From positions 32,632 to 96,631 of the forward strand of contig CAMJMR010000001.1 in the NCBI GenBank assembly GCA_946407095.1: 64,000 nucleotides of DNA. Direction: 5' to 3'. Positions 3,977 through 64,000 of this stretch are shown piece after piece. Every line of letters starts with the position of its first letter. The stretch's first letter is position 1. Source of the stretch: an uncultured Selenomonadales bacterium. Lineage in GTDB: Bacteria > Bacillota > Negativicutes > Selenomonadales > Selenomonadaceae. Position numbers and translations under genes: made by a program. The notes beneath the pieces are model-generated. The model saw only the letters and a list, made by a program, of their open reading frames with translations. It was not told the origin of the DNA and did no database searches.

Positions 3977-4068
3977 GCTAGCAATGCGCAGCGTTGCGTA
4001 TGGACGCGGTGACCAACTTTGAACAGAATAACGTTGGAGCGCGACCGCAGGATGCAACGTCACGTTGC
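3977..4068 (+). repeat. Family-1 palindrome-ended element, copy 1 (subtype a)
   Basis: GCTAGCAATGCGCAGCGTTGCGTATGGACGCGG...GGATGCAACGTCACGTTGC. It aligns with the copies at 31436, 31610 and 46380, and overlaps the last codons of rplE. Confidence 0.8.
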
Positions 4069-4602
4069 GGCGAACGGCATACCCAAGAGCGAGAGGAATT
4101 CACGCGCCTCTTCGTCGGATTTGGCCGTCGTGACGATGATAATATCCATGCCGCGAATTTTTTCGATTTTGTCGTATTCGATTTCGGGGAAGATGAGCTG
4201 TTCCTTGACGCCGATAGCGTAATTGCCTCTGCCGTCGAAGGAATTTCTGCTGACGCCTCTGAAGTCGCGAACGCGCGGCAAGGCAACGTTCATGAACTTG
4301 TCGAGGAATTCATACATACGGCGGCCGCGCAGGGTGACTTTGCAACCGATAGGCATACCGGTGCGGAGTTTCCAGGCGGCAAGGGATTTGCGTGCGCGAG
4401 TGATGACGGGCTTTTGGCCTGCGATAGTGGTCAAGTCGGCAACGGCCGATTCGAGGACTTTGGCATTGCCGACGGCATCGCCGCACGCCATATTGATGAC
4501 GATTTTTTCAAGCTTGGGCACCTGCATGACGTTCTTGTAAGAGAATTTTTGGGTCAAAGCGGGAATAACTTCGGCTTTGTACTTGTCGAGAAGTCTGCTC
4601 AA
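4060..4602 (-). CDS. rplE: 50S ribosomal protein L5
   Basis: 180 aa [23 protein letters not shown].... The last codons and the stop come from the family-1 terminal hairpin. Confidence 0.95.
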
Positions 4603-14524: not shown

Positions 14525-15040
<516 letters not shown>

Positions 15041-22330: not shown

Positions 22331-22361
22331 CTAGTTCCTAGTTCCCAGTTCCTAGTTCCTC
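22331..22361. repeat. CTAG-heptamer tandem array upstream of the ABC ATPase gene
   Basis: ACTAGTTCCTAGTTCCCAGTTCCTAGTTCCT. An inverted single unit AACTAGGAA lies at 22315. Confidence 0.7.
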
Positions 22362-28700: not shown

Positions 28701-31383
28701 AAATTTTTCGCTTAAGGCCGGCGAACGCTTTCGATTGCAGGACGGCGAACGGCTCGCGCTGATTGAGTCGGGCAAGGTCGAAGTCTACGTCGTCACTCGC
28801 GCCGAGGGTTCCTTCCGTCAGCAATTCTTGGTTGAGTTGACGGCGGGGGAGGCGGCTTTCCCGTCGCTTGACGAATTTGAGCAGACCGAAACGCTGATTT
28901 ACGCCGCCGAAGACTCGCAAATAAAAATCCTCACGTTCGACGAAGCAGAGCCCGCCGCGTTGAAAAATTTCATGCGCAACTGGTTCGCCGAGCTGATTAA
29001 GTTGCCGTGGCTGCGCCTGCTTGCCGACAAGGGCGACGACGTTCTAATCACGTGGCTGGACGGCACGGTTCTGGAGGGCGCGGACGATTTGACCGACGCC
29101 TTCCGCGAAAACGAAGAAATTTTTTCAATGCTGTTGGGCGTGCGCTTCCAAGCGGAGGATAAGCGTTTCTCTCAACGCGTCGAAGTCCGCACGCGCAATC
29201 AGCGGCGACTGCTTGACAACTCGATAGCAAACCTCCTCGGCGAAGAAACGACCCAATACAGCGAAACGACCGAACGCGCCGAACTTTTGGAGGAGGCGTC
29301 TTTTATCGTGCGGCGGGCTGCCGTTGCGCTGAACATGCCGACCGACAACATCAAACTCGACCCCGAAATCGTTCGCAAGCTCGACCAAATCAGATTGATT
29401 CGGCGGCTCGTTCAAAAGGGCAACATGCAGATGCGCCTTATCGAACTCGTCGAAGACTGGCATAAAAACGACAGCGGCGTCATAATCGGCTACTACGGCG
29501 AACGAAAGACCCTTGCCGTCTTCGTGCCGACCGCGCCCGACAAATACAAGCTAATCACCAAGGACAAGCCCGAAGGCATCCCGATAACCGACGACGTTGC
29601 CGCGCAGATTGACAGGAGTGCCTTTGAATGCTACGGCGGCTTCCCTGCGCGGGAACTGGGCATTCTCGACCTGATGAAGTTCATTTTCAAGCAGTGCTGG
29701 ATTTCCGACTACAAAACCGTCATCGTTATCAGCCTCGTATCGGGTTTGATTCCGTTGGCAATGCCGCTGGTGACGGAAACGATTTTCGCCGACATAATCC
29801 CGATTCTCGACCGTCAAGGGCTCGCGACCGTCACGCAGGTCATCATGGTCACAAGCTTCACGACGGCGTCATTGGGCATCGTCCGCACGATAGCCGTCAT
29901 GCGAATCACAACGCGCATGAACATGGCGACGGAGGCGGCTCTTTGGGGACGACTGCTCACCTTGCCGACGAAATTTTTCCGCCGGTTCACCTCCGGCGAA
30001 TTGGCAAGCCGCATGAACGGTATCAGCGTCATCAAAGGGCTCGTCAGCGCAGATTTTATCGGCGGGCTGTTCGGCTTCGTCTTCAGCTTCTGGAGCATCT
30101 TTTTGATGTGCTACTACAGCCTCAAGCTCACTGCGGTGGCGGTGGTTATCTGGTTCGTCTACGCGATTGTCACGGCGTTCATCTATCGGCGCGTCATAAA
30201 CTTTCAGCGCAGCCTTATCGCCGCCAACAACAAGGAGGCGGGCATTGTCCAACAGATTTTCAAAGGGCTTGCCAAGTTCCGCGAACACGGCGCGGAGAAT
30301 CAAGCTTACTGGTTGTGGAGCGGCGTCTTCGGCGAAACGTGGAAATGGAACTTGAAACTGCGCTGGCAAAGCAACTACAACATGATTATCGGCAGCGTTC
30401 AGCCGTTTATCTTGACGATGGCACTTTACTATATCGCGGTCTACGGCATTAACGAGGTCGGCCCCAACGGGCAAATGGTTCAAGGCATAACCTACGCGCA
30501 GTTCATTGCGTTCCAAGGAGCCTTCTCAAGCTTCAACGCCACGCTGAACGGGATTGTTCCGCTTGTCGGTCAATACTTCGCGATTCAGCCGCACATTGAA
30601 AACTTGCGCCCGATACTCAAGGAAGTGCCCGAAAGCGTCGGCGAAAAGGCGGACGCGGGCATTTTGAGTGGCGCGATTGAACTCAACGGCGTGACGTTCG
30701 CCTACAACGAGGGGCATGACGTTTTGCACGAAGTCAGCTTCAAGATAGCGGCGGGCGAGAACGTTGCGATAGTCGGGCGGTCGGGTTGCGGCAAGTCGAC
30801 GCTTGTAAGGTTGCTTTTGGGTTTCGAGACGCCGCGCAAGGGCTCAATCTACTTCGACGGTCAAGACTTGGCTGAACTCAACTTGCCGAGCGTCAGAACT
30901 CAAATGGGCGTCGTGTTGCAAAACGGTCAGCTCATGCAAGGCGACATCTTCACGAACATAATCGGCACCAACGCCTTGACGCAGGAGGACGCATGGCAGG
31001 CGGCCGAGGCGGCGGGCATTGCGGCTGATATCGCGATGATGCCCATGGGTATGCAAACCGTCATCAGCGAGGGCTCAACCAATATCAGCGGCGGACAACG
31101 GCAAAGGATTTTGATAGCCCGCGCCCTGGTTACCAAACCGTCAATCCTAATCTTCGACGAGGCGACCAGCGCGCTTGACAACCGAACTCAAGCCATCGTC
31201 ACAAAGAGCCTGGACAGCCTCAACGCCACGCGAATAATCGTTGCCCACCGCTTGTCGACGATTCGCAACTGCGACAGGATTTTGGTCATGGACGCGGGCA
31301 GGATTGTCGAGAACGGCACCTTCGACGATTTGGTTGCGCAAGGCGGGATTTTTGCTAACTTGGTCAAACGTCAGACGGCTTAA
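28684..31383 (+). CDS. Bacteriocin export ABC transporter, permease/ATPase subunit with an N-terminal cNMP-binding-like domain
   Basis: About 900 aa, with Walker A GRSGCGKST and signature ISGGQRQRILIARAL. The GTG at 28684 is preceded by AGGAGA. The track ORF begins at TTG 28663. Confidence 0.88.
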   Translation: MTRLSKNFSLKAGERFRLQDGERLALIESGKVEVYVVTRAEGSFRQQFLVELTAGEAAFPSLDEFEQTETLIYAAEDSQIKILTFDEAEPAALKNFMRNWFAELIKLPWLRLLADKGDDVLITWLDGTVLEGADDLTDAFRENEEIFSMLLGVRFQAEDKRFSQRVEVRTRNQRRLLDNSIANLLGEETTQYSETTERAELLEEASFIVRRAAVALNMPTDNIKLDPEIVRKLDQIRLIRRLVQKGNMQMRLIELVEDWHKNDSGVIIGYYGERKTLAVFVPTAPDKYKLITKDKPEGIPITDDVAAQIDRSAFECYGGFPARELGILDLMKFIFKQCWISDYKTVIVISLVSGLIPLAMPLVTETIFADIIPILDRQGLATVTQVIMVTSFTTASLGIVRTIAVMRITTRMNMATEAALWGRLLTLPTKFFRRFTSGELASRMNGISVIKGLVSADFIGGLFGFVFSFWSIFLMCYYSLKLTAVAVVIWFVYAIVTAFIYRRVINFQRSLIAANNKEAGIVQQIFKGLAKFREHGAENQAYWLWSGVFGETWKWNLKLRWQSNYNMIIGSVQPFILTMALYYIAVYGINEVGPNGQMVQGITYAQFIAFQGAFSSFNATLNGIVPLVGQYFAIQPHIENLRPILKEVPESVGEKADAGILSGAIELNGVTFAYNEGHDVLHEVSFKIAAGENVAIVGRSGCGKSTLVRLLLGFETPRKGSIYFDGQDLAELNLPSVRTQMGVVLQNGQLMQGDIFTNIIGTNALTQEDAWQAAEAAGIAADIAMMPMGMQTVISEGSTNISGGQRQRILIARALVTKPSILIFDEATSALDNRTQAIVTKSLDSLNATRIIVAHRLSTIRNCDRILVMDAGRIVENGTFDDLVAQGGIFANLVKRQTA

Positions 31384-31435
31384 GGGGGATTTGGCATGAA
31401 GAATTTTTTGACGACCTTAAGCGCGGCGATTGAGT

Positions 31436-31528
31436 GGGCTAGCAATGCGCAGCGTTGCGTTTTGACGCGGCGAATACGTTTGAATCATGAGCGACACGGC
31501 GCGCTATCCGGATGCAACGTCACGTTGC
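31436..31528 (+). repeat. Family-1 element, copy 2 (subtype a)
   Basis: GGGCTAGCAATGCGCAGCGTTGCGTTTTGACGCGGCGAATACGTTTGAATCATGAGCGACACGGCGCGCTATCCGGATGCAACGTCACGTTGC. Confidence 0.85.
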
Positions 31529-31609
31529 CGAACTTAGTCAAGCGTCAGACGGCTTAAGGGGGATTTGGCATGAAGAATTTTTTGACGACCTTAAGCGCGG
31601 CGATTGAGT

Positions 31610-31702
31610 GGGCTAGCAATGCGCAGCGTTGCGTTTTGACGCGGCGAATACGTTTGAATCATGAGCGACACGGCGCGCTATCCGGATGCAACGTCACGTT
31701 GC
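31610..31702 (+). repeat. Family-1 element, copy 3 (identical to copy 2)
   Basis: Identical sequence, 174 nt downstream of copy 2. Confidence 0.85.
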
Positions 31703-31744
31703 CGAACTTAGTCAAGCGTCAGACGGCTTAAGGAGTGATTCGTT

Positions 31745-33250
31745 ATGAAAAAATTTTTGGCGGCTTTAGCGACAGCGGCGTTACTTTTTCCGAACACGAC
31801 TCAAGCCGCCGAAGGCGTGAGTTTGACGCTTGACGACGCGATTGAACTTGCGCTGAAGAACAACCGCCTAATCGAGCAGTCGACGGCGGACAGGGAGGCA
31901 GCCAAGTGGAATTTGTCAGCCGTGCGCCGCAATGCGGGTCCCATACTCAGCTGGTCTTCGTCGTTAAACCATATCGGCGGCAGATTTTATCGCAGAAACT
32001 ATCGCAACATCAGGGACGATGTCAAAGCGCGAAATGCGGAGTACAGAGCGACTTACGGCTACGAGCCCTACAACATGAATCTTTACCCGAATTACAATTA
32101 CGAAGGCACGCACAGCTTGACGTTGCGAATGCCGGTGTACACGGGCGGGCGTCTTGAGAATCAGCGGGAGTCAGCGCGCTACACTCTGAACGCTGCCGAT
32201 TTGACGCTTGAAAATTCTCGTCAGCAAGTCAAGTACCAAGCGGCGGCGGCTTACTATCGCGTCCTTCAGCAAGAAAGTTTGGTCGGCGTGCAGGAGCAGG
32301 CGGTTCGGCTTTTGCAAGAGCACTTGCGCATGGTTTCCACCCAATACGAAGTCGGCACCGTCGCCAAGTCGGATGTGCTTGCCACCAACGTTCAGCTTGC
32401 CAACAGCCAACAGAGCTTGACCACCGCGCAGGGCAATTATCAAACCGCCGTCGCGCAACTCAACAACGTTTTGGGTTTGCCCGTCGACACCGAAATTGCC
32501 GCGAGCGATAAGATTAATTTCGTCAAATACGGCTTGAGCGAGGCTGATTGCCTTGACTACGCCTTGAGCCACCGCCCCGACGGAATTGCCGCCGTTTACG
32601 CCGCCAAGCGAGCCGGAGCTGATGTTTCCGCCGCAAAGAGCGGTTTTCGCCCGAATGTTTCGGCTATCGTGCAAGGAATAGCCACGGGCGAAAGTTACTT
32701 CAAAGCAGACCATCGAAGCGAACGTTTGTCGGTCGGCGTCGAGATGACTTGGAATATTTTCGACAACGGCATTACCTCCGCGCAGGTTCAGCAATACAAG
32801 GCCGTCGAGCGCAGAGCCGAGTCGGTCGCCCGCCAACAGATTGAAACGATTCAGCTTGAAGTGCACAGCGCGTATATCGCCTTGAAGACCGCCGAGAAAA
32901 ATATCGAGACGACAGCCGCCGCCGTCGACAAGGCGGAGGAGGAATTCGCCATCGCGCAAGTCCGCTACGTCGAGGGCGTCGACACCAACTTGAACGTCAT
33001 GAACGCGCAGGAAAAGGTCGTCGAGACGCGCAACAACTACTACGCCGCCGTTTACAACTACAACACGAGCCGCGCGCAACTGGAAAAGGCAATGGGCGTT
33101 CCCGTCGCGATTGACGCGTTGCTTTACGCCGAAGCGGAACAGGAAGGCAAATCGTCGCCGAAGTCCTTGGAGGCGGCCGCCGTCAATCAAAATGATTCGT
33201 CGGAGGCTGAAGTCGTCAAAGAATCGCCCGCGCCCTTCGACAAGCAATGA
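31745..33250 (+). CDS. TolC-family outer-membrane efflux protein
   Basis: 501 aa ORF with a signal peptide MKKFLAALATAALLFPNTTQA and two repeated TolC halves (...LTLDDAIELALKNNRLIEQ...). Confidence 0.9.
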   Translation: MKKFLAALATAALLFPNTTQAAEGVSLTLDDAIELALKNNRLIEQSTADREAAKWNLSAVRRNAGPILSWSSSLNHIGGRFYRRNYRNIRDDVKARNAEYRATYGYEPYNMNLYPNYNYEGTHSLTLRMPVYTGGRLENQRESARYTLNAADLTLENSRQQVKYQAAAAYYRVLQQESLVGVQEQAVRLLQEHLRMVSTQYEVGTVAKSDVLATNVQLANSQQSLTTAQGNYQTAVAQLNNVLGLPVDTEIAASDKINFVKYGLSEADCLDYALSHRPDGIAAVYAAKRAGADVSAAKSGFRPNVSAIVQGIATGESYFKADHRSERLSVGVEMTWNIFDNGITSAQVQQYKAVERRAESVARQQIETIQLEVHSAYIALKTAEKNIETTAAAVDKAEEEFAIAQVRYVEGVDTNLNVMNAQEKVVETRNNYYAAVYNYNTSRAQLEKAMGVPVAIDALLYAEAEQEGKSSPKSLEAAAVNQNDSSEAEVVKESPAPFDKQ

Positions 33251-34671: not shown

Positions 34672-37600
34672 TCACTTTCCTGCGAGAATTTTGTAGCCGT
34701 TAATGCGTTCTTCGGCATCGTGCTGTGTCTTTTCAAAGAGAGCCTGCGCGGCGTCGGGGAAGTTGCGCTTCAAGGACGAATAACGGACTTCGCCCATAAG
34801 GAATTCTTGGAACTTGCTGAAGTCGGGCTCCTTGCTGTCGAGCGTGAAAGGATTCTTGCCCGCCGCTGCGAGTTGAGGATTGAAACGCCAATTAGCCCAG
34901 TAGCCGCACTGAACGGCGAGCTTGCCCTCCAGTTGGCTTGAACCCATGCCCTTGCGTATGCCGTGATTGATGCAGGGCGCGTAGGCGATAATCAACGACG
35001 GACCGGGATAAGCCTCCGCCTCCGTGACGGCTTTGAGCAGCTGATTCTGGTCTGCGCCCATCGAGACTTGCGCAACGTAGACGTAGCCGTAACTCATCGC
35101 CATCTTGCCTAGGTCTTTCTTCTTGGTGCGCTTGCCTGTCGCCGCGAATTGCGCGATAGCCGCAGCCGGAGTCGCCTTCGACGCTTGACCGCCCGTGTTC
35201 GAGTAGACTTCCGTATCGAAGACAAAGACGTTGACATCTTCGCCGCTTGCCAAAACGTGGTCAAGCCCGCCGTAGCCGATATCGTAAGCCCAGCCGTCGC
35301 CGCCGAGTATCCATTGCGAGCGCTTCACGAAAAAGTCGCGGTTGTCGAAGATTTTATTCAGCAGTTCGTCCGAGCCCTTTTGAGCGGCAAGCAACGCCGT
35401 CAACTTATCTGCGCGGTCGCGAGTGCCTTCGCTGACGTCGCGGTTGTCCTTCCAGTCGGTCAAAGCCGCTACCAGTTCCTTGTTCCTTGTTCCTTGTTCC
35501 TGAATTGCTTGTTCGACTTCGTTGGCCAACATTTCACGAATCGCCTTGACGCCGAGGAACATGCCCAAGCCGTATTCGGCGTTGTCTTCAAAGAGCGAAT
35601 TGCCCCAAGCGGGACCGTGACCCTTGAAATTTTTGGTGTAGGGCATTGCCGGTGCCGACGCGCCCCAAATCGACGAGCAACCCGTAGCGTTGGCAATCAT
35701 CATGCGGTCGCCGTAAAGTTGCGTCAAAAGTTTTGCGTAAGGCGTTTCGCCGCAACCCGCGCAGGCTCCGCTGAACTCAAACAGCGGCTTTTCAAACTGA
35801 CTGCCGATAACGGTCGTCTTCTTCGTCGGATTCTCTTTTTGAGCGAGCTTGACGCCGTAATCGAAAATTTTCTGCCGAGCCATCGCCTTGTCGTCGAACT
35901 TGACCATTTCCAACGCCTGCTTCGGACAAACCTGCGCGCAGTTGCCGCAGCCGAGGCAGTCGTAGGTTGAGACGGCGATTGTCACGTCATACTTGCCGCG
36001 AGAAATTTTCGACGGAATAGCCTCCATGCCTTCGGGCGCGGCCTTGAGTTCGTCTTCGGTCGTGAGAATCGGGCGAATAGCGGCATGCGGGCAAACGAAC
36101 GAACATTGATTACAGCCGATGCATTTTGACTTGTCCCACGCGGGAACTTTGATAGCCGTGCCGCGTTTTTCGTAGGCCGTGCCGCCGACGGGGAATGTGC
36201 CGTCCGCCAAGTCGACAAACTTGCTGACAGCCAACTCGTCGCCTTCCTGCCGATTCATGACGTTTTGGATGTCGGTGACGAATTCGGGCGGGTCGACTTG
36301 TTTCAGGTTGCGATTCATGCTTGTGTCGTCGACGTCCCACGTGCTTGTGTCGACTTTGTGCAGAGCCTCAATGCCCTTGTCAATCGCGCCGCAGTTCATG
36401 TCGACGACGTTTTGCCCCTTCGAGCCGTAAGATTTTTCGACGGCGTCCTTGAGGTACTTAACAGCCTCGTCAATCGGAATGATGTTCGCCAGCTTGAAGA
36501 AGGCGGCTTGCATGACCATGTTGAAGCGTCCGCCCAAGCCGAGTTCGCCCGCGATTTTCACGGCGTTGACGGTGTAGACTTGAATGTCGTTGTCCTTGAT
36601 GTAGCGTTTCATTGCGGGCTTGAGCTTATGACCGAGCTTTTCGTCGCTCCAGTCGGTGTTGAGCAGGAAGGTGCCGCCCTTTTTCAAGCCCGCGATAAGA
36701 TTGTAATGATGAACGTAGCTTTTCTGCGAGCAGCTTACGAAGTCGGGCTTGGTGATAAGATACGGCGAGGTTATGGGCAACTTGCCGAAGCGCAGGTGGC
36801 TCATGGTGATGCCGCCGGATTTTTTCGAGTCGTAGGCGAAGTAAGCTTGCGCGTAAAGGTCGGTGTTGTCGCCGATGATTTTAATCGCGGACTTGTTCGC
36901 GCCGACGGTGCCGTCAGAGCCGAGACCCCAGAACTTGCAAGCGGTCGTGCCTTCGGGCGTCAAGTCAACGTCGTGATGACCCGTCACGAGGGATTTGTTG
37001 GACACGTCGTCGTTAATGCCGATAGTGAAGCCGTCAAGCGGCGAATCCTTTTTGAGTTCGTCGAAGACCGCAAGCAGTTGGTCGGGCGTGGTGTCCTTGC
37101 CGCCCAAGCCGAAACGTCCGCCGACGATAACGGGCTTGTCGGCCACGTCGTAGAAAGCGGCTTTAACGTCAAGATACAGGGGCTCGCCGACGGAGCCGCT
37201 TTCCTTCGTGCGGTCGAGGACGGCGATTTTCTTTACGGTTTTGGGAATGGCGTTGAGGAAGTGCTTGACGCTGAACGGGCGGTAGAGGTGGACGCTCACG
37301 ACGCCGACTTTTTCGCCCTGCGCGTTGAGGTAAGCCGCCGCCTCGTTTGCGGTTTGACAGCCCGAACCGATAGCGATAATGACGCGGTCGGCATCGGGCG
37401 CGCCGCTGTAGTCGAAGATGTGATGTTCGCGCCCCGTGACCTTTGCCACGTCAGTCATAATCTCTTCGACGATATCGGGCAGGCGGTCGTAGTTGTTGTT
37501 GACGGTTTCGCGAATCTGGAAGTAGACGTCGGGATTGGTGGCGGTGCCGCGCATGACGGGGTGGTCGGGATTGAGGGCGTTGCGGCGGAAGGCGTTGACC

Positions 37601-44228: not shown

Positions 44229-44287
44229 ATAATCGCAATGGTGGCGGGCGCGTCCCTTCAATTCGTCATTCGATTAAATTTATTTTT

Positions 44288-44461
44288 TAAATCTACTTTC
44301 TTTGTGCGGACAAAGAAAGTAGCAAAGAAAACCGCCGCTACGCGCGGGGCGAAGGGTCGTTACCCGCGCCGCCCGATATTTTCAGCGTGCTTGCGCCGAC
44401 GGTATTTGCGTCACGCAAATGCGTCGGCGACGGCCGCCCATCCTTGGGCGGCCTCTTTTTT
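44288..44461 (+). repeat. Family-2 structured element, short form (copy c), ending in a canonical terminator; candidate ncRNA
   Basis: P1 TACTTTCTTTGTGCGGACAAAGAAAGTA, a TCAC-loop hairpin ATTTGCGTCACGCAAAT, and a terminal hairpin GGCCGCCCATCCTTGGGCGGCC followed by TCTTTTTT. Confidence 0.75.
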
Positions 44462-45687: not shown

Positions 45688-46371
45688 TTGCTTGACGAAA
45701 AAAAAGTTGCGTTCATAACGTGCGTGAACAGCGATTGGTGGTACAGCGAGTGCCGCCTTTACCTGGAGCACTTGACGATACCCGACGGCATGACGGCCGA
45801 GTTTATCGACGTGCGCGACGCAAAATCCATGACGGCGGGCTACAACCGCGCAATGAAAAATTCCGACGCCAAGTACAAAATTTATCTGCACCAAGACACT
45901 TTCGTCGTCAACAAGAATCTTATCGCCGACTTGCTGAAAATTTTTCGCGACGAGACAATCGGTGTCGTGGGAGTGATTGGTTGCATGAACTTGCCCGCGA
46001 CGGGCGTTTGGTGGGACGGCTTGAGGACTTACGGGCGCGTGCTTCATGCTTGCGAGCCCGAAAGTGTCGTCGATTCGCATTGCGACGAACCCGAAGGCGA
46101 TTATCAGGAAGTCGAATCGGTTGACGGTTTATTTTTGGCGACGCAGTACGATTTGCCGTGGCGCGAAGATTTGTTCGACGGTTGGCATCTTTACGACACA
46201 TCGCTCTGCAAGGAAATGAGCCGAGCCGGTTATCGGGTTGTCGTGCCGAATCAGTCGGCGGATTTTTGGTGCATACACTGCCCGAAGGAAAAACCGCTTG
46301 ACCCGCGCTATCGCCGCTACCAAAAAATTTTCCTTGCCGAATACGGCGACGAACTTAATCCCGAAGTTTAA
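45688..46371 (+). CDS. Glycosyltransferase-like protein (GT2-like fold)
   Basis: 227 aa ORF ...VAFITCVNSDWWYSECRLYLEHL...YNRAMKNSDAKYKIYLHQD...VDGLFLATQ... Confidence 0.7.
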   Translation: MLDEKKVAFITCVNSDWWYSECRLYLEHLTIPDGMTAEFIDVRDAKSMTAGYNRAMKNSDAKYKIYLHQDTFVVNKNLIADLLKIFRDETIGVVGVIGCMNLPATGVWWDGLRTYGRVLHACEPESVVDSHCDEPEGDYQEVESVDGLFLATQYDLPWREDLFDGWHLYDTSLCKEMSRAGYRVVVPNQSADFWCIHCPKEKPLDPRYRRYQKIFLAEYGDELNPEV

Positions 46372-46379
46372 AAGTTGGT

Positions 46380-46473
46380 GGGCTAGAAATGCGCATGCAT
46401 TTCGTATCGGCGCGGCGATACCGTTTGAATTACGGAAGCTAAGGCGCGCTATCAGGATGCAACGTCACGTTGC
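46380..46473 (+). repeat. Family-1 element, copy 4 (subtype a, diverged 5' arm)
   Basis: GGGCTAGAAATGCGCATGCATTTCGTATCGGCGCGGCGATACCGTTTGAATTACGG...GCGCGCTATCAGGATGCAACGTCACGTTGC. Confidence 0.8.
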
Positions 46474-46568
46474 CGCCGCTACCAAAAAATTTTCCTTGCC
46501 GAATACGGCGACGAACTCAATCCGGAGGTGTAAAGTGGAAGACATCAAACCGAGCTTGAGCCGCTTTA

Positions 46569-46663
46569 AAAGCGGCGAAACATATAACGCGTTTAAGCGT
46601 CCGGTAACTTCAGCCAGTCGCCGCGCATAAAATTTATCAACGAACTTTATTGGGAGGTTTGAC
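46569..46663 (-). repeat. Family-1 element, copy 5 (subtype b, diverged or truncated)
   Basis: The plus strand reads CCGCTTTAAAAGCGGCGAAACA...GTCGCCGCGCATAAAAT.... It aligns with 59846 and 63517. Confidence 0.6.
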
Positions 46664-47548
46664 GTGGAAGACATTAAACCGAGCTTGACCGAATTCATTT
46701 ACGGCGAAGATTTTTGGCAAAGAATTTTGGTCGTCGAGAGCGCAGATTATCTTGCCGAGTTGCGCGAGCGGTTCCCGACGGATGAAATTTTTTTTGTCAC
46801 TACGAACGAGGATTTTCATTCCGACGGCGTGAAAACTTTCGTGCTTGACTATCGCGAGGAGCGACTGCCCTTCGACGAAGAATTTTTCGACGCGATTATC
46901 GGAGACTTGACGCTTGAGGTCGTGACTAACCCGCAAGACATAGCGGCGGGCTTTTCGACGTTCATTAAGCAGACGGGCTGTTGGCTGACGAGTTTCCGCA
47001 ACCTTCGCCATTGGAAGGTCATCGAAAAGCTGATGCGCGGCGTTTCGGGAGGAATAGTTTCGCGGCTGTACACGCGCACCGAATTCGAGCGGTTGCTTTA
47101 CGCGTCGTTCTATAAGGAAGTGCAACTGTTGCCGCTGAAAAAAAACGCGCCGCCCGAACTTTTGGCGCGGCTTATCGATTGCGGCTTCGACAACTTCGAC
47201 GACGACTTGCAGACAGAATTTTGGCTGGTAAGAGCGGCGCGCTCAATGCCGGAACTTGCGCTGTTGAAGTCAATGTTCACGCCCGACATCCGCGCAGAGC
47301 TGTCGCGCCTCCTTCACCGCATCGAATACGACGTTGCAACCGAGGACAGCGTTCAAAAGTTTTGGCGGCTATTCGACGCACAGGGTCTTTTCACGGACTA
47401 CGCGGCGGCGTTCATTCGGTCGGTCGTCGTGCACCGCGAACATTTTTGGCGCAACATGAAAATTTTTTCCGCCCGCGCAGAGCTTGACGCGATAATCGAC
47501 GAGGCGGAATCAATGTACGACTTCGATACGGGTAATCGTCTGCTGTGA
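46664..47548 (+). CDS. Hypothetical protein (weak class-I methyltransferase-like features)
   Basis: 294 aa ORF from GTG 46664, preceded by GGGAGG. No strong motif recognised. Confidence 0.6.
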   Translation: MEDIKPSLTEFIYGEDFWQRILVVESADYLAELRERFPTDEIFFVTTNEDFHSDGVKTFVLDYREERLPFDEEFFDAIIGDLTLEVVTNPQDIAAGFSTFIKQTGCWLTSFRNLRHWKVIEKLMRGVSGGIVSRLYTRTEFERLLYASFYKEVQLLPLKKNAPPELLARLIDCGFDNFDDDLQTEFWLVRAARSMPELALLKSMFTPDIRAELSRLLHRIEYDVATEDSVQKFWRLFDAQGLFTDYAAAFIRSVVVHREHFWRNMKIFSARAELDAIIDEAESMYDFDTGNRLL

Positions 47549-53085: not shown

Positions 53086-53324
53086 GCCCTTTCGTTTGCT
53101 AAGCAAAAGGGCTCAAAGACAGCTTTTGATTTTAAATCTACTTTCTTTCACTGGCGAAAGAAAGTAGCAAAGAAAGCCACCACTGCGCGTGGGGCGGATA
53201 CCGACCACCGCCGCAACGTTCGCGTCCCAGTCAGCCACTCGTGCCGCTGTCGACGCATCACGCGTCGAAGTCGCGGCGGGCGCGCGTCCATGCGCGCCCT
53301 CATTCTCTGCAACTCATTCGTTGC
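53086..53324 (+). repeat. Family-2 structured element, intermediate form (copy d); candidate ncRNA
   Basis: Carries the 5' hairpin CCCTTTCGTTTGCTAAGCAAAAGGG. The core is identical to copy b. The terminal hairpin GGGCGCGCGTCCATGCGCGCCC differs from copy b by compensatory changes. Confidence 0.8.
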
Positions 53325-55966: not shown

Positions 55967-56156
55967 CTCAATCGCTCCTTTGATTTTGGTCGACGGAAAA
56001 TTTCTACAGGCGGCGGCGTTTTTCCTGCAGAGGGCTTGCGGTTGAAATTGCGCTGGCATTGAACTATAATCAATCGGATTATCTAGGGGCAGTTGGTAAC
56101 GTCAAACAGTGACGGTTCTTTTTTCGCCTGACGAAAGTTGTCGCGCGCTCGCCGGT

Positions 56157-56250
56157 CGCTTTAAAAGCGACGGAACAGCAAGGGCGCGGCGATTCCCTTA
56201 AGTCATCGACGAGTTTCAACGCGCTATCTGGGTCAAGCTTCAAGCTTGCG
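56157..56250 (+). repeat. Family-1-related element, copy 6 (mosaic: subtype-b hairpin at the 5' end, subtype-a-like hairpin at the 3' end)
   Basis: GTCGCTTTAAAAGCGACGGAACAGCAAGGGCGCGGCGA...GCGCTATCTGGGTCAAGCTTCAAGCTTGC. The 3' hairpin covaries with GCAACGTCACGTTGC. Confidence 0.6.
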
Positions 56251-59791: not shown

Positions 59792-59840
59792 CCGTTATTC
59801 TCCGATAAATTTTTCTTGCCGACCTTCGACTCAAGCCGCC

Positions 59841-59943
59841 GCCGCCCGCTTTAAAAGCGGGGGAACAGTTAGCGCGTTGCAACTGACGACAAAGGAAACG
59901 TTATCGCCGCGTTCATACGCAACGCCGGCGCATTGCTAGCCCG
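59841..59943 (-). repeat. Family-1 element, copy 8 (subtype b)
   Basis: The plus strand reads GCCGCCCGCTTTAAAAGCGGGGGAACAGTTAGCGCGTTGCAACTGACG...GCCGCGTTCATACGCAACGCCGGCGCATTGCTAGCCC. Confidence 0.8.
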
Positions 59944-59960
59944 ATAAAATGGTTGGATTC

Positions 59961-62450
59961 TCAATTTTTCTTGCCGACCTTCGACTCAAGCCGCCTACGC
60001 AGTTCGTTATGAAAATCTTCCGCGCCCGCCTTGAATTTGACCTCGACGCAGATGACGTAGACCGGAATGCTCCACGCCTGCCGCGCCACTTCGTCCGGAA
60101 TTTTAACGGCGTCCTTTTCCGTCACAACAATCATTTCCGCCGCGAACGACTCCGCCCGCCGCAAGATGTCTTCCATTTCCGCAACCGTGTAGTCGTGGTG
60201 GTCGGGATAGCGCAGGCTCGAAATTATTTCCGCTCCCAAATCGCTTAGCGTCCTCTCGAACGACGCGGGGTTGCCGATAGCCGAAACCGCCATCACCTTC
60301 CGCCCGCGTAAAATCTCGACGCTGACGCCCTCGCCCGCCAAATCGACCGACCAATCGGCAAGCGGTATCAGGCAGCGCGGCTCGTGTATGCTCTCGACAA
60401 TCTGCGCGGCGGCATTGTACTTTTGAACGGTCTCGCGAATCAGCTCGCAAGAACCCTCGCGGGCTTGGTCAACCTTCGTCATGAGGCAAACATCTGCGCG
60501 GCTGATATGGGAAATGGATTCGCGCAACGTGCCGCGCGGCAAAAGGTGCCCGTTCCCGAAGACGGACACCGCGTCAATCAGCAGAATGTCGAAGTCGCGA
60601 ATGATTTGCCAATGTTGAAAGCCGTCGTCAAGAATCACGACCTCCGCGCCGAAATTTTCAATGGCGTATTGCCCCGTGACGGCTCGCCGCGCTCCGATTA
60701 GCACAGGGACATTCGGCAGGTGCTTGGCAAGCATGTAGGCTTCGTCGCCCGCCTCCGTCGCGTCCATTTTGAGCGTCTTGCCGTCGCTTACGATGCCGAC
60801 TTCGCCGTAAAATTTCGCCCGGTAGCCGCGATTGAGAATCACGACGCGATAGCCCATGTCGCGAATTTCCTTCGCCAGCCGTTGAGCCGTAGGCGTTTTG
60901 CCCGTCCCGCCGACCGTTATGTTGCCCAGGCTTATGACGAAACATTTCAGCCGCTCCTTGCCCGAAAAGCCCAAATCGTAGCCGAGTAGCCGCAGATTGA
61001 CCAGCCCTTTGTAGACCAGCGAGGCAAGATACATGACGAAAATCATCAGCGGCGTGAAGGCTCCGCGAACTTCTTCGTCGTGAATCAGCTTGAGGAAATA
61101 CGTTTGAACGTTTTCAATTTTCTCTGTCGTGCGGAGGCGGCGGGCGTTTTCCTTGGCCTCGTATTCGGTGAGCATTTGCCTTAGCAGGACGGCCGACTTG
61201 CGCGACGCGCCGCGATTCTCATGGACAATCTTAATCGTCTCTTCCTCAAGGCGTTGGCGTTCGGCGGGTTCGTCGAAAAGTTTCTTCGCCTGCGCGGCAA
61301 GTTCGTCAGCGTCCTTGACCGTGACGCAAGCGTTGCGATTCTTGAACAGCGCGTGCAAGTCTTTAAAATTTTCCATGTGGTGCCCGACGATAATCGCCTT
61401 GCCGTGCGCCGCCGGCTCAAGGATATTGTGGCCGCCGTGAGAAACCAGACTGCCGCCGACGTAAATCACGTTGCCGACGCTGTAGACTTGACCGAGTTCG
61501 CCGATAGTGTCGAGGATGATTATGTCTTCGCCCTTGGGCGGACGCTTTTGGAGTTCGGTGCGCGTGCCGACGGTGAAGCCTGCCGCCTTGCACAGCGCGA
61601 CGACTTCACGGGTGCGCAAAAGTTCGCGCGGGGCAATGACGAGCCGAGCCTTGGGATGATCTTCGCGAATAGCCTTGAACGCCTTGAGCACGAAATTTTC
61701 TTCGCCGCGATGCGTGCTGCCCGCCAAAAAAATTTCCGTGGCGTCCGTCAAGCCCATGTCCGACAAAATCTTGGCGCGTTGAGCGTCCGTGACATCGGTG
61801 TAGGTTTGGTCGAATTTCGTATTGCCCGTGACGATGACGAGGTCTTCAGGCGCACCGAGCTGCTTGACGTAGCCCGCGTCGACACTTGACGCCATAGCGA
61901 ACAGCTTGACCGTGCCGATCATATCGCGCAGGATTGAGAACATGTACTTGTAACGCTTGACGCTCTTTTCGGAAATGCGCCCGTTGACCATCATGACGGG
62001 CACTTGATGTTCGCGCGCCGCTTTGAGGAAGTTCGGCCACAGCTCCGTTTCGACGTTCAGAAAGACGCGCGGGAAAATTTTTTTGAAGACCGACTCCGAA
62101 ACGAACGGCAAATCCAGCGGGAAGTAGATTATGCTGTCCGCGTCTTTGATGATTCGGTTCGCCATTTCGTAGCCTGAAGTCGTCACGACCGACACGAGGA
62201 TTGGCGATTTGGGGAATTCGCGGCGGAACTCTTTAATCAGCGGGCTTGTGGCGACGATTTCTCCGACCGACGCCGCGTGCACCCATATGCAATTTTTTTT
62301 CGCCACGGGGTCCAGTGCGCCCTTCGGGAAGAAGCCGAAGCTTTGACGGATTCGCTCCACGAAGCCGCGCTCCCGTATCGAACGAATCATGAACACCGGG
62401 ATAATCAGTATCACGACGAGTATCGCCGCCAAGTTGTAAAGTAATTGCAA
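59961..62450 (-). CDS. Bifunctional fusion: Kdo transferase (WaaA/KdtA) plus tetraacyldisaccharide 4'-kinase (LpxK)
   Basis: 829 aa ORF. The N-terminal half has WVHAASVGE and GT30 features. The C-terminal half has VISLGNITVGGTGKTP (LpxK P-loop). Confidence 0.88.
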   Translation of the reverse strand: MQLLYNLAAILVVILIIPVFMIRSIRERGFVERIRQSFGFFPKGALDPVAKKNCIWVHAASVGEIVATSPLIKEFRREFPKSPILVSVVTTSGYEMANRIIKDADSIIYFPLDLPFVSESVFKKIFPRVFLNVETELWPNFLKAAREHQVPVMMVNGRISEKSVKRYKYMFSILRDMIGTVKLFAMASSVDAGYVKQLGAPEDLVIVTGNTKFDQTYTDVTDAQRAKILSDMGLTDATEIFLAGSTHRGEENFVLKAFKAIREDHPKARLVIAPRELLRTREVVALCKAAGFTVGTRTELQKRPPKGEDIIILDTIGELGQVYSVGNVIYVGGSLVSHGGHNILEPAAHGKAIIVGHHMENFKDLHALFKNRNACVTVKDADELAAQAKKLFDEPAERQRLEEETIKIVHENRGASRKSAVLLRQMLTEYEAKENARRLRTTEKIENVQTYFLKLIHDEEVRGAFTPLMIFVMYLASLVYKGLVNLRLLGYDLGFSGKERLKCFVISLGNITVGGTGKTPTAQRLAKEIRDMGYRVVILNRGYRAKFYGEVGIVSDGKTLKMDATEAGDEAYMLAKHLPNVPVLIGARRAVTGQYAIENFGAEVVILDDGFQHWQIIRDFDILLIDAVSVFGNGHLLPRGTLRESISHISRADVCLMTKVDQAREGSCELIRETVQKYNAAAQIVESIHEPRCLIPLADWSVDLAGEGVSVEILRGRKVMAVSAIGNPASFERTLSDLGAEIISSLRYPDHHDYTVAEMEDILRRAESFAAEMIVVTEKDAVKIPDEVARQAWSIPVYVICVEVKFKAGAEDFHNELRRRLESKVGKKN

Positions 62451-62478: not shown

Positions 62479-63324
62479 TCAAGCGTCCCATTCACAGACG
62501 AAACCGGAATTTTCAAGGTTGTAAAAGGGTAATACTCCGTCGCCTCCTGATTCAACCATATCATTCCAAAATCCATTAAATCCCGGATGCCTGTATATGG
62601 TCAAGACATTTTCACCATATTTTCCGCCATTGTTCGGTTCTCCCTTGTACCAGTTGGAATAAGAAAATTTTTCGCCGGTAATCCAAACAAAATTGCCGTC
62701 CGAATCTCTGATGCCGCCCGTCCAATAGTAGCCTTTCGTTCCGCGATTGATTATCAAATCTTGAACGAACGCCTGCTCCACGCCCGAAGTTATGGTTACC
62801 AAATGACCTCCGAGGGATTCGCAATAAGTTTTGGCGTCATTCCAAGTGAGCCCCGTGTCGATAATTTTGTAGCTGTGACCGTTGTGTTCGTATTTTACGG
62901 CATCGGCGGGGATATTTTTAGCGTGAATATTTCCATGAGAGTCAATGAAGTCGTCAATATTCCGTTTCAGCTCGTCGCTGTCGATTATTACCGTGATCGT
63001 CACGAAAACTTGAACTGCATCGTTGACCAAAGTTTTTTCTATCTGCGTGTCCGTGATTTTCAAGACACCCGCTGTCATCGTTATGATGTCGTCCTCGACA
63101 AGCTCAAAATCGCGGAGTTCGGAACGAGTTCTGATATAGACGCCGGCTTTTTCGCGCGCATTCCGCAGAGCATAAGTTTTCGCCCGTTCGATGATTTGTT
63201 CCTGCGTCTCGGCTTCGCTCATTGTCGCCTTGCCCTCGCCGGTGTAAGTTTCAACCTCGGCCTGCGCGGCGGACATAAAAAATAAACTGCAGACGATAAG
63301 CAGCGTTGCCAAAAACTTTTTCAC
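62479..63324 (-). CDS. Secreted protein or lipoprotein with a C-terminal C-type lectin domain
   Basis: GTG 63324 after GGGAGGTG. Signal peptide (M)KKFLATLLIVCSLFFMSAAQA. C-terminus ...LTWNDAKTYCESLGGHLVTITSGVEQAFV...YWTGG...WYKGEPNN...WNDM...FVCEW. Confidence 0.8.
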   Translation of the reverse strand: MKKFLATLLIVCSLFFMSAAQAEVETYTGEGKATMSEAETQEQIIERAKTYALRNAREKAGVYIRTRSELRDFELVEDDIITMTAGVLKITDTQIEKTLVNDAVQVFVTITVIIDSDELKRNIDDFIDSHGNIHAKNIPADAVKYEHNGHSYKIIDTGLTWNDAKTYCESLGGHLVTITSGVEQAFVQDLIINRGTKGYYWTGGIRDSDGNFVWITGEKFSYSNWYKGEPNNGGKYGENVLTIYRHPGFNGFWNDMVESGGDGVLPFYNLENSGFVCEWDA

Positions 63325-63515
63325 GAGCCCGCACCTCCCACAAAAAATTTTGTCGATTATAACACAGCGCACAAAAAAAATCTGCCGCTTGTAAGTGACA
63401 GATTAAATTTTTTAAAATTACGAAGTGCTCTTTAGCATTTATCAAAAACGATTCGTAACTTTAGGAGAATGGAAGATGAACTTATCGGCTGAAAACATTT
63501 CGGTGACGCTCGGCG

Positions 63516-63597
63516 CCCGCTTTAAAAGCGGGGGAACAGCGGACGCGCCTCAACGTTTCACTGCTTAAAGTTGGTCGCCCGCGTCCATACGCATTGC
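63516..63597 (-). repeat. Family-1 element, copy 9 (subtype b)
   Basis: The plus strand reads CCCGCTTTAAAAGCGGGGGAACAGCGGACGCGCC...GTCGCCCGCGTCCATACGCATTGC. It is flanked by direct repeats of about 65 bp. Confidence 0.8.
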
Positions 63598-63623
63598 TTC
63601 GTAACTTTAGGAGGGATTGAAAG

Positions 63624-64000
63624 ATGAACTTATCGGCTGAAAATATTTCGGTGACGCTCGGCGGCAAAGAGATTTTGCGCGATTTGAATTACGAATTCCC
63701 TTCGGGCAAGCGCACGGCGATAATCGGCGCGAACGGCGCGGGCAAGTCCACTTTGCTGAAGGTGCTTTGCCTGCTCAACGAAAATTTTTCGGGACGCGTG
63801 ACGCTCGACGGGCAAGACATTCGCGCACTCGGCAGAAAAAATTTGGCAAAGGTAATGGCAATCTTGCCGCAAGAACGCGACGCGCCGCAAGATACGACCG
63901 TCAAGCAGTTGGTTTCATTTGGACGCTTTCCGCACAGAAAATTTTTCAGCGGCACCTCGAAGGAGGACGACGCGGCTGTTCAAAACGCCTTGGCACTCAC
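63624..64000 (+). CDS. ABC transporter ATP-binding protein (iron-siderophore/cobalamin FecE/FepC-like), 5' part
   Basis: MNLSAENISVTLGGKEILRDLNYEFPSGKRTAIIGANGAGKSTLLK.... Runs off the window end. Confidence 0.85.
   Translation, partial: MNLSAENISVTLGGKEILRDLNYEFPSGKRTAIIGANGAGKSTLLKVLCLLNENFSGRVTLDGQDIRALGRKNLAKVMAILPQERDAPQDTTVKQLVSFGRFPHRKFFSGTSKEDDAAVQNALAL

What the first reader, a model, noticed from the sequence alone, without database searches (positions are those of the whole stretch)
63452..63663. Family-1 insertion duplicates the RBS and first 13 codons of an ABC ATPase gene, creating a decoy start
Seen directly:
- 63452-63515 and 63598-63663 are direct repeats covering TTCGTAACTTTAGGAG, the spacer, and ATG AAC TTA TCG GCT GAA AAY ATT TCG GTG ACG CTC GGC G.
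- The upstream copy is fused to the element and gives a 30-aa ORF at 63476-63568: MNLSAENISVTLGARFKSGGTADAPQRFTA*.
- The downstream copy starts the real gene.
- The coding part differs only by AAC/AAT, which is synonymous. The SD-ATG spacer differs by indels.
- The subtype-b hairpin is read as R-F-K-S-G in this decoy ORF and also in the decoy ORF at 46543, so both are in the same frame relative to the hairpin.

Inference. A decoy start immediately upstream of the true RBS could modulate translation of the real gene. The shared frame hints at non-random insertion geometry.
Basis: partly seen in the sequence, partly recalled or inferred. Interest (0 to 1): 0.65.

Follow-up and report, generated by a model that had tools for sequence, protein, structure and literature searches.

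The report
Small mobile repeat with long target duplication
The duplicated ribosome-binding site and first 13 codons are the footprint of an 82-base mobile repeat that copies an unusually long stretch of its target when it inserts, so the "decoy start" looks like a by-product, not a designed regulator.

Summary
Window 63452-63515 and 63598-63663 are direct repeats flanking an 82-nt element, and the upstream copy opens a 30-aa ORF.

Close relatives settle what it is. Four strain contigs with a 97-98% identical ABC ATPase carry one copy of the repeated stretch and no element. The repeat is therefore a 64-66-nt target-site duplication (TSD).

This holds across the family:
- In rumen Selenomonadaceae (Quinella-like) MAGs, 47 of 119 elements ending in the same hairpin (..CTGTTCCnnCGCTTTTAAAGCGnn) have duplications of 15-125 nt. 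Random controls gave 8 of 1500.
- In 37 of the 47 the duplication starts exactly at the hairpin foot.
- The other junction is variable. I found no terminal inverted repeats and no transposase.
- Insertions sit at gene boundaries, so TSDs often copy gene starts or stops.

Decoy frames relative to the hairpin are 5:3:2 across ten cases, and decoy peptides run 5-48 aa.

One thing was unexpected: real and decoy copies differ mostly at third codon positions (25 of 31).

The nearest known cases are IS1634/IS1549 and "insertion with long target duplication" of restriction-modification genes. The enzyme and mechanism remain unknown.

The parts
63389..63418 (+). Promoter-like site (TTGTAA-18-TAAAAT) upstream of both repeat copies
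   Evidence: Consensus scan. It is a pattern match only.
63452..63515 (+). Upstream TSD copy: AGGAG at 63463-63467, ATG at 63476, then 13 codons of the ABC ATPase gene. This is the decoy start.
   Evidence: Its spacer is identical to the single copy in the empty-site contigs L107 and L108.
63476..63568 (+). Decoy ORF, 30 aa plus stop. It reads through the b-hairpin as R-F-K-S-G and stops inside the element.
63516..63597 (-). 82-nt non-coding repeat element, in family orientation on the minus strand. The terminal b-hairpin CCCGCTTTAAAAGCGGG is at 63516-63532. The GCGCG..CTG box, the CGCGGGCGA box and a truncated a-end (GCAATGCG) follow.
   Evidence: nhmmer E = 5e-18; alignments; absent from L107-L110.
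63598..63663 (+). Downstream TSD copy: AGGAGGG at 63609-63615, ATG at 63624. This is the functional start of the gene.
63624..64000 (+). ABC transporter ATP-binding protein gene, cut by the window end. It is 259 aa in L001.
   Evidence: PF00005; homologues named ABC transporter ATP-binding protein.
46312..46691 (+). Double insertion at an operon junction. An a-type element (46373-46473) is flanked by 61-nt repeats 46312-46372 and 46474-46534, which hold the stop of gene A. A b-type element (46561-46639) is flanked by ~49-nt repeats 46512-46560 and 46640-46688, which hold the SD and start of gene B. The decoy ORF is 46535-46630 and the real start is 46664.
59808..59995 (-). b-type long-form element (about 59841-59962) flanked by 33-38-nt repeats. 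These duplicate the 3' end of the kdtA-lpxK fusion gene.
31357..31771 (+). Tandem array (X-E)2-X with a 174-nt unit at 99% identity. X holds the stop of the upstream ABC gene plus the SD and start of the downstream gene. E is an a-type element.
3978..4070 (+). a-type long-form copy with no detectable flanking duplication
56150..56250 (+). Degenerate b-hairpin copy upstream of rplI
   Evidence: weak hits, E = 1e-5.

Best explanation
An 82-nt member of a non-coding dispersed repeat family inserted into the first codons of the ABC ATPase gene. The insertion came with a 64-66-nt target-site duplication (TSD). The downstream copy keeps the gene intact, with SD, ATG and the full ORF. The upstream copy is left behind as an orphan SD plus start that now reads into the element.

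**Shown**
- The insertion and the duplication.
- The family-wide rule of long, variable TSDs.
- A precise junction at the hairpin foot, and a target that begins with a pyrimidine after a T-rich run.
- A variable junction at the other end of the element.

**Inferred**
- A trans-acting enzyme, not found here, recognises the terminal hairpin. The hairpin's stem pairs covary.
- The enzyme joins that end at one nick. The second strand is opened 12-125 nt away, and fill-in synthesis duplicates the interval.
- Only insertions at gene boundaries survive. There, a long TSD leaves one intact copy of each gene end.

The decoy start is most likely a tolerated by-product. The two copies differ the way functional alleles differ: synonymous changes plus spacer variants also seen in strains without the insertion. 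I attribute this to homologous recombination or gene conversion with functional alleles after insertion, not to selection on the decoy.
For: **Empty sites**
- L107 and L108 (ABC protein 98% identical, same lectin gene upstream) and L109 and L110 (97%) carry one copy: ..TTCGTAACTTTAGGAGAATGGAAGATGAAC..CTCGGCGGCAAAGAG.
- In L107 and L108, which also carry the lectin gene, the intergenic spacer is 152 nt against 301 nt in the window, about 149 nt shorter.
- L115 is also empty at this end.

**A second filled/empty pair at the 3' end of the same gene**
- L115 and L116 are empty. L001 and L109 are filled, and L107 is filled as far as its contig reaches (it ends inside the element).

**Family**
- 8 copies in the window and 79 nhmmer hits in 806 kb.
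- More than 104 loci, nearly all from rumen Selenomonadaceae or Quinella MAGs.

**TSD rule**
- 25 of 74 elements score above the 99th percentile of the random control.
- Anchoring on the hairpin, 47 of 119 have a duplication against 8 of 1500 controls. In 37 of the 47 it starts at offset 0. Lengths are 15-125 nt, median 40.
- Further exact TSDs of 12-14 nt exist.

**Target and hairpin**
- The first TSD base is C or T in 30 of 30 cases, and the base after the hairpin is C or T in 117 of 123. The preceding flank is A-rich then T-rich.
- Hairpin outer pairs covary: CC/GG 46, GT/AC 35, GC/GC 24.

**Element properties**
- No real TIRs: the best match is 9 nt.
- Insert length is continuous from 35 to 136 nt.
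- No multi-copy ORF among 878 ORFs.

**Gene boundaries**
- 38 of 40 insertions lie at gene boundaries.

**Allele-like differences**
- 25 of 31 coding differences are at third codon positions, with 22 synonymous against 5 non-synonymous codon differences (p = 9e-8).
- The window's two spacer variants both occur in strains without the insertion.
Against: - No enzyme or autonomous partner was found, so the nick-and-fill mechanism is inferred from the footprints alone.
- About half of the elements show no detectable duplication. They may be old or diverged, or they may have inserted without one.
- All the sequences appear to be metagenome assemblies, and tandem arrays may be mis-sized.
- A promoter-like site lies upstream, the decoy SD and ATG are intact, and every decoy examined keeps its start codon. 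An effect on expression therefore cannot be excluded.
Confidence: 0.82

Rival explanations
1. The decoy start is a selected regulator that behaves like a uORF. Ribosomes loading at the upstream SD/ATG translate a 30-aa peptide through the hairpin and tune translation or mRNA stability of the ABC ATPase gene. Under this reading the insertion geometry is non-random.
For: - A promoter-like site lies upstream of both copies, with no terminator between them.
- The decoy SD and ATG are intact in all 11 duplicated-start cases examined.
- Decoy copies are not decaying neutrally.
- The two window decoys share a frame.
Against: - Frames split 5:3:2 over ten cases.
- Decoy peptides run 5-48 aa with no conservation beyond the hairpin residues, and three stop inside the hairpin.
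- TSDs copy gene ends at least as often as gene starts.
- Close strains do without the insertion.
- The leader fold is unremarkable.
- Intact decoys and the third-position bias are equally explained by recombination or conversion with functional alleles.
Confidence: 0.1
2. The long TSDs are made by a DDE transposase of the IS1634/IS1549 kind acting in trans on a MITE. Both element ends are recognised and the two target strands are attacked far apart.
For: IS1634 and IS1549 produce variable direct repeats of 8-514 bp (PMC2266710). IS1630 produces 19-26 bp (PMC2853133). The TSD range here, 12-125 nt, fits.
Against: - No terminal inverted repeats.
- The end opposite the hairpin is not fixed: 0-60 nt of variable sequence precede the conserved box, and insert length is continuous.
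- No transposase-like multi-copy ORF in about 800 kb around the elements. Whole genomes could not be searched.
Confidence: 0.2
3. Integration is defined at one end and primed on the target. The hairpin end of an RNA or single-stranded DNA copy is used at a nick, synthesis runs towards a variable 5' end, and a distant second nick gives the variable TSD. This is a LINE/SINE-like signature in a bacterium.
For: - The junction at the hairpin is precise, at offset 0 in 37 of 47 cases.
- The opposite junction is variable and insert sizes are continuous.
- Conservation falls away with distance from the hairpin end.
- Very short inserts exist: a 35-nt element, and a 21-nt hairpin module with an 11-nt duplication.
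- Hairpin modules are interchangeable.
- The TSD lengths are variable.
Against: - No reverse transcriptase or other enzyme has been linked to the family.
- The long form has a fairly constant 5' start at (ATCAGCGAG)GCTAGCAATGCG, so 5' truncation is not the whole story.
- The conservation gradient is partly built in, because the loci were selected by the hairpin pattern.
- Variable 5' segments could be diverged target sequence or sequence carried over from earlier sites.
Confidence: 0.15
4. The repeat is an assembly artefact. The X-E-X arrangement is a chimera of strain variants in metagenome assemblies.
For: The sequences appear to be metagenome assemblies. The two copies carry different natural alleles. 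The Logan contig L002 breaks inside the element.
Against: - Both junction types recur in the window and in L001.
- The X-to-element junction is independently present in L002.
- The same architecture appears at 47 or more loci in MAGs from many studies and assemblers.
- An insertion without the duplication would truncate the gene.
Confidence: 0.03

Closest known systems
IS1634 / IS1549 (IS1634 family, related to IS4) and IS1630
   Same: Insertion creates long direct repeats of the target with variable length (8-514 bp; 19-26 bp for IS1630). No accepted mechanistic model exists (PMC2266710, PMC2853133).
   Different: Those are 1.6-1.9 kb autonomous elements with a DDE transposase and terminal inverted repeats. 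The elements here are 35-136 nt and non-coding. They have one conserved hairpin end, no TIRs, and no transposase nearby.
'Insertion with long target duplication' of restriction-modification gene units (Nobusato 2000; Furuta 2010, PMC2853133)
   Same: The target duplications are long and variable (30 to over 400 bp), often overlap the 3' ends of genes, come with no recognisable mobility gene, and can lead to amplification through the repeats. Tandem (X-E)n arrays are seen here too.
   Different: Those are single, kilobase-sized gene cassettes. This is a high-copy family of tiny non-coding elements with a conserved end and a target preference.
MITEs and small dispersed repeats (Correia/NEMIS, RUP, ERIC, BOX, REP/BIME)
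   Same: Short, non-coding, high-copy, hairpin-forming, located between genes, co-transcribed with neighbours, and mosaic in make-up like BIMEs. This comparison rests on my own knowledge of those families.
   Different: Classical MITEs have TIRs and a short fixed TSD. REP/BIME elements have none. Here TSDs run 12-125 nt and only one end is constant.
Non-LTR retroposons (LINE/SINE, target-primed reverse transcription)
   Same: Variable-length TSDs, a constant 3' end, a variable 5' end, and insertion at a T-rich nick site. This is a resemblance in footprint only.
   Different: There is no poly-A, no linked reverse transcriptase, and no evidence for an RNA intermediate. Such elements are not known in bacteria apart from group II introns.
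Upstream ORFs and leader peptides
   Same: A short translatable ORF with its own SD lies upstream of the real start on the same probable transcript.
   Different: The peptide, frame and distance are not conserved across family members, no attenuator structure is present, and close strains lack it.

Membership tests
MITE (miniature inverted-repeat transposable element) | Terminal inverted repeats matching those of a parent IS | tested here: not met
   I aligned the first 28 nt against the reverse complement of the last 28 nt in 37 TSD-delimited elements. The mean score was 6.1 and the maximum 9. Shuffled controls gave a mean of 4.8 and a 95th percentile of 7.
MITE (miniature inverted-repeat transposable element) | Short TSD of fixed length | tested here: not met
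   TSDs run 15-125 nt with a median of 40. Exact TSDs of 12-14 nt also occur.
MITE (miniature inverted-repeat transposable element) | Small, non-coding, multi-copy, with presence/absence polymorphism | tested here: met
   Inserts are 35-136 nt. There are 8 copies in 64 kb and more than 100 loci in MAGs. Filled and empty alleles exist.
IS1634-family-driven element | Long direct repeats of variable length on insertion | tested here: met
   Literature.
IS1634-family-driven element | A DDE transposase of that family in the same genomes, with ends matching the element | tested here: inconclusive
   No multi-copy ORF among 878 ORFs in about 800 kb of flanking sequence. No long element is bounded by the hairpin within 7 kb. 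Whole genomes could not be searched.
REP/BIME-RAYT system | Short palindromic units in mosaic arrangements | tested here: met
   Hairpin modules a, a', b and c are interchangeable and nested. The stems covary.
REP/BIME-RAYT system | No target duplication, and an associated RAYT (TnpA-REP) gene flanked by the repeats | tested here: not met
   Long TSDs are the rule. Genes lying between inverted hairpin pairs in L032 and L035 look like housekeeping genes, judged from their translations only and not confirmed by a domain search. A RAYT gene elsewhere in these genomes was not testable.
Site-specific integrative element that carries a replacement gene end (as with tRNA-targeting islands) | The element carries a fixed copy of the target end and integrates at one cognate site | tested here: not met
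   Each copy is flanked by a different duplicated sequence taken from its own locus. The empty site holds the whole stretch once.
Regulatory uORF / leader peptide | Conserved peptide, frame or spacing relative to the regulated start | tested here: not met
   Frames split 5:3:2, peptides run 5-48 aa, and TSD length varies.
Known RNA family (Rfam) | A match at the gathering threshold | tested here: not met
   No matches in the whole window. RNAalifold on 60 copies finds no conserved core structure (-3.2 kcal/mol) beyond the terminal hairpin.

The most novel reading that the evidence does not exclude
This may be a previously undescribed family of very small hairpin-ended elements in rumen Selenomonadaceae that moves by a mechanism defined at one end only. 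On this reading, integration is primed on the target, perhaps through an RNA or single-stranded DNA copy whose 3' end is the hairpin foot. That would leave SINE-like footprints in a bacterium: a precise 3' junction, a variable 5' end, and TSDs of 12-125 nt. If so, it would be a new mode of bacterial transposition and a tractable model for how long target duplications arise.
Probability: 0.15. Interest if true: 0.85.

Novelty: new variant of a known kind. Interest (0 to 1): 0.58.

Why it matters
**For annotation.** In these genomes, short ORFs that repeat the first codons of the next gene, and orphan gene tails, are insertion footprints. They should not be called as genes or as frameshifts. At the 3' end of this same ABC gene, a second insertion changed the last residues from ..GKKF* to ..GKGI*.

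**For mobile-DNA biology.** Long, variable target duplications have been reported for a few insertion sequences and for restriction-modification cassettes, with no mechanism proposed. This family offers, by extrapolation from the window's density, possibly hundreds of copies per genome. It also has a defined hairpin end, a target preference and natural filled/empty alleles. That makes the question approachable by comparative genomics and by experiment.

**For evolution.** Long TSDs let an element land inside the ends of genes in a compact genome without destroying them.

Tried and rejected
- **Rfam** at gathering threshold on the whole window: no match. **tRNA/tmRNA** scan: none.
- **Viral contigs** scanned for the hairpin end: none.
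- **Autonomous partner**, three approaches, none successful:
  - I searched up to 7 kb upstream of 72 hairpin ends that lack a nearby TSD, looking for a distant matching repeat. Only other repeat families turned up.
  - I clustered 878 ORFs from the loci looking for multi-copy proteins. Only orthologues appeared.
  - I read the genes lying between inverted hairpin pairs in L032 and L035. Judged by eye from their translations, with no domain search, they look like a nitroreductase-like protein, a ferritin-like protein, a lipoprotein and riboflavin synthase.
- **Species-level orthologous sites** (L104, L057 and L003 against the window) were too diverged to serve as empty sites.
- **Exact-protein look-up** for the gene at 46664 returned only the same assembly.
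- **Leader RNA and element DNA folds** are no more stable than shuffled sequence (z = -0.28 and -0.92).
- **First ORF-context pass** using open reading stretches was too noisy. A greedy ORF selection replaced it.
- **Ideas considered and dropped:**
  - A diversity-generating retroelement (template and variable repeats): the differences are not adenine-specific, and every locus has its own repeat.
  - An integron attC site or Xer site: these give no TSD.
  - Cas1-type integration: the duplication would have a fixed length.
- **Literature searches** found no description of this family. The Quinella genome paper contains none of the search terms for transposons, insertion sequences, mobile elements or reverse transcriptase, and its one use of 'repeat' is unrelated.

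Full report
**1. The observation**

The sequence is as described. 63452-63467 and 63598-63613 are identical. 63467-63515 and 63615-63663 match at 94% over 49 nt.

The copies differ in two places. The SD-ATG spacer reads GAATGGAAG in one and GGGATTGAAAG in the other. Codon 7 is AAC in one and AAT in the other, a synonymous change.

The upstream copy runs into an 82-nt insert. It opens a 30-aa ORF at 63476-63568, MNLSAENISVTLGARFKSGGTADAPQRFTA. The downstream copy starts an ABC transporter ATPase gene at 63624. That gene is cut by the window end and is 259 aa in contig L001.

The repeat is far beyond chance. Its flank-duplication score is 106, against a median of 18 and a 99th percentile of 43 in 1000 random placements.

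**2. What the insert is**

63516-63597 is one of eight copies in the window of a repeat of roughly 70-100 nt (nhmmer). The others are:
- 3978-4070
- 31439-31530 and 31613-31704
- 46383-46475
- 46561-46631
- 59846-59939
- a degenerate copy near 56150-56250

Read in family orientation, which is the minus strand at this locus, the parts are:
- an optional 5' module, GCTAGCAATGCGCAGCGTTGCG
- a CGCGGCGA box
- about 35 variable nucleotides
- a GCGCG..CTG box
- a terminal hairpin

The hairpin here is the b type..CTGTTCCnnCGCTTTTAAAGCGnn.

Rfam has no match and there are no tRNAs in the window.

Nearly all are rumen Selenomonadaceae or Quinella MAGs. The ABC ATPase homologues carry the same taxonomic names. 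The window therefore comes from a Quinella-like rumen bacterium.

**3. Proof of insertion with duplication**

Contigs encoding near-identical ABC ATPases give the empty site:
- L107 and L108 (98% protein identity, same C-type-lectin gene upstream) carry a single copy, ..AAAAACGATTCGTAACTTTAGGAGAATGGAAGATGAACTTATCGGCGGAAAATATTTCGGTGACGCTCGGCGGCAAAGAG... L109 and L110 (97%) carry the same stretch once, with a variant SD-ATG spacer.
- In L107 and L108 the spacer between the lectin gene and the ABC gene is 152 nt, against 301 nt in the window, about 149 nt shorter. The repeats are spaced 146-148 nt start to start (alignment A1).
- L115 is empty as well.

The repeat is thus a target-site duplication (TSD) of 64-66 nt, running from TTCGTAAC.. 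to ..CTCGGCG.

A second filled/empty pair lies at the 3' end of the same gene, just past the window:
- In L115 and L116 the ABC gene and the convergent hexapeptide-transferase gene overlap.
- In L001 and L109 an element sits between them and part of the gene end is duplicated. L107 begins the same element, but its contig ends inside it. The ABC C-terminus changes from ..FPLGKKF* to ..FPLGKGI* (alignment A4).

This gives three haplotypes: both insertions, the 3' insertion only, and neither.

**4. Long TSDs are the family rule**

- Every well-preserved window copy except 3978 is flanked by direct repeats of 33-79 nt that contain gene ends.
- Across 806 kb, 25 of 74 nhmmer hits have flank duplications above the 99th percentile of the control.
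- Anchoring on the b-hairpin, 47 of 119 ends have a duplication scoring at least 30 whose right copy begins within 6 nt of the hairpin foot. Random positions gave 8 of 1500. In 37 of the 47 it begins exactly at the foot.
- TSD lengths are 15-125 nt with a median of 40. Several more elements have exact TSDs of 12-14 nt.
- Eight of the 47 are tandem (X-E)n arrays, like 31357-31704 in the window.

**5. Anatomy relevant to mechanism**

- *Hairpin.* The outer pairs of its stem covary (CC/GG 46, GT/AC 35, GC/GC 24). The structure itself is therefore maintained.
- *Target.* The base after the hairpin, which is the first base of the TSD, is a pyrimidine in 117 of 123 cases. It is usually followed by G. 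In the target, the TSD is preceded by an A-rich then T-rich run.
- *Opposite junction.* It is not fixed. Between the left TSD copy and the CGCGGCGA box lie 0-60 nt that differ from copy to copy. Insert length is continuous from 35 to 136 nt.
- *Termini.* There are no meaningful terminal inverted repeats.
- *Conservation.* It falls off with distance from the hairpin. The hairpin-based selection of loci contributes to this.
- *Long form.* A scan of metagenome contigs with the 5' module shows a fairly constant 5' start. It also shows many interchangeable terminal hairpins (a, a', b, c) with compensatory changes.
- *Nested modules.* Hairpin modules are sometimes nested next to each other with duplications of 3-11 nt. 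In L109 a 21-nt b module sits inside an a hairpin with an 11-nt duplication.
- *Enzyme.* No transposase-like multi-copy ORF occurs among 878 ORFs near the elements. No larger element ends in the hairpin. No viral contig carries it.

**6. Gene context and the decoy**

With heuristic gene calls, 38 of 40 TSD-bearing insertions lie at gene boundaries. The TSD overlaps a gene start in about 12 cases and a gene end in about 17.

Duplicated starts therefore follow naturally from long TSDs at gene boundaries. The long TSD is also what allows an insertion inside the first or last codons to leave an intact gene.

In ten cases where a duplicated start reads into the b-hairpin:
- the frames split 5:3:2
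- three decoys stop inside the hairpin
- decoy length runs from 5 to 48 aa

Two window copies sharing a frame has a one-in-three chance.

A promoter-like site (63389-63418) precedes both copies and no terminator-like site intervenes, so the decoy is probably transcribed and may be translated. The leader folds no better than shuffled sequence. I see no evidence for a selected regulatory role, and I cannot exclude an effect.

**7. An unexpected pattern**

This generalises. Over ten duplicated-start pairs:
- 25 of 31 coding differences are at third codon positions
- 22 codon differences are synonymous and 5 are not (p = 9e-8 against one third)
- the non-coding part of the TSDs differs at 23 of 180 positions

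An orphan copy decaying neutrally should not look like this.

At this locus both spacer variants, and both AAC and AAT, occur in strains without the insertion. GGAGAATGGAAG occurs in L107 and L108. GGAGGGATTG.. occurs in L111 and L115. The two window copies are mosaics of alleles present in the population.

The simplest reading is that, after insertion, each copy keeps being overwritten by homologous recombination with functional alleles, or by conversion from the real copy. This is an inference. Selection on the decoys is the less likely alternative.

**8. Comparison with known systems**

- Long, variable direct repeats on insertion are documented for IS1634 and IS1549 (8-514 bp, 'no mechanistic model'; PMC2266710) and for IS1630 (19-26 bp).
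- 'Insertion with long target duplication' is described for restriction-modification cassettes. It often overlaps gene 3' ends and is followed by amplification (PMC2853133).
- The present family shares that footprint. It differs in being tiny, non-coding, high-copy and defined by a hairpin end, without TIRs.
- It resembles REP/BIME elements in its mosaic of palindromic units. REP elements make no TSD.
- I found no description of it. The Quinella genome paper contains none of the search terms for transposons, insertion sequences, mobile elements or reverse transcriptase, and its one use of 'repeat' is unrelated.

**9. Verdict**

- The interpretation as an insertion that duplicates the gene start is right.
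- The idea of a purposeful decoy with non-random frame is not supported.
- What deserves attention is the element family itself: a new variant of small bacterial mobile repeats that makes 12-125-nt target duplications by an unknown mechanism, possibly one defined at a single end.

**10. Caveats**

- All the sequences appear to be metagenome assemblies.
- Gene calls in the survey are heuristic.
- The enzyme is unidentified.
- About half of the copies show no detectable duplication.

Noticed in passing
Window-wide and loci L003-L106: The palindrome AAAATTTT occurs 935 times in 806 kb, 69 times the mononucleotide expectation. AAAAATTTT is about 150 times over-represented. It often lies next to element 5' ends and just before TSDs.
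   Followed up: partly
window 33346-33535, 53124-53313, 44279-44351: A second repeat family, 178 nt at 97% identity between two copies, with the hairpin CTACTTTCTTTC..GAAAGAAAGTAG. In other MAGs, b-type elements sit inside a similar hairpin (TCTTTGGGCAAGCAAAGA..) as a composite repeat.
   Followed up: no
window 12402-12432, 15011-15055, 22330-22360, 35471-35501: Short arrays of a 7-nt unit (CTAGTTC)n lie between genes. Related arrays, (TTAGGAG)n and (GGGACTA)n, lie next to elements in metagenome loci L159, L161 and L166.
   Followed up: no
L001 6626-6802 (just beyond the window end), with L109, L115, L116: A second element sits at the 3' end of the same ABC ATPase gene. Empty alleles have the ABC and hexapeptide-transferase genes overlapping. 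The filled allele changes the ABC C-terminus from ..GKKF* to ..GKGI*.
   Followed up: yes
L109 about 1040-1100; L121, L137, L148, L164: Terminal hairpin modules are nested or swapped, with duplications of 3-11 nt. One example is GCAA[CGTCACGTTGC]TTCCGCCGCTTTCAAAGCGGC[CGTCACGTTGC]. The smallest mobile unit may therefore be a hairpin module of about 20 nt.
   Followed up: partly
Ten duplicated-start pairs, including window 63452/63598 and 46512/46640: Real and decoy copies differ mainly at third codon positions (25 of 31; 22 synonymous against 5 non-synonymous codons). The orphan copies are not decaying neutrally.
   Followed up: partly
window 46312-46372 versus 46474-46534: In the copy that now ends gene A, the SD once embedded for gene B (CCGGAGGTGTAA) has become CCCGAAGTTTAA through three synonymous changes. 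The middle remnant keeps the SD and the GTG.
   Followed up: no
window 59961-62450 (-) and 62479-63324 (-): An 829-aa fusion of Kdo transferase (Glycos_transf_N) and LpxK lies next to a secreted 281-aa protein with a C-type lectin domain. That domain is uncommon in bacteria (Pfam labels).
   Followed up: no
L131 and L150: The same target (GCAGAATTTTATTTTAGTCATAA) carries elements with homologous 5' parts but different terminal hairpins (a' against c). This suggests hairpin replacement after insertion, or repeated use of a hot spot.
   Followed up: no
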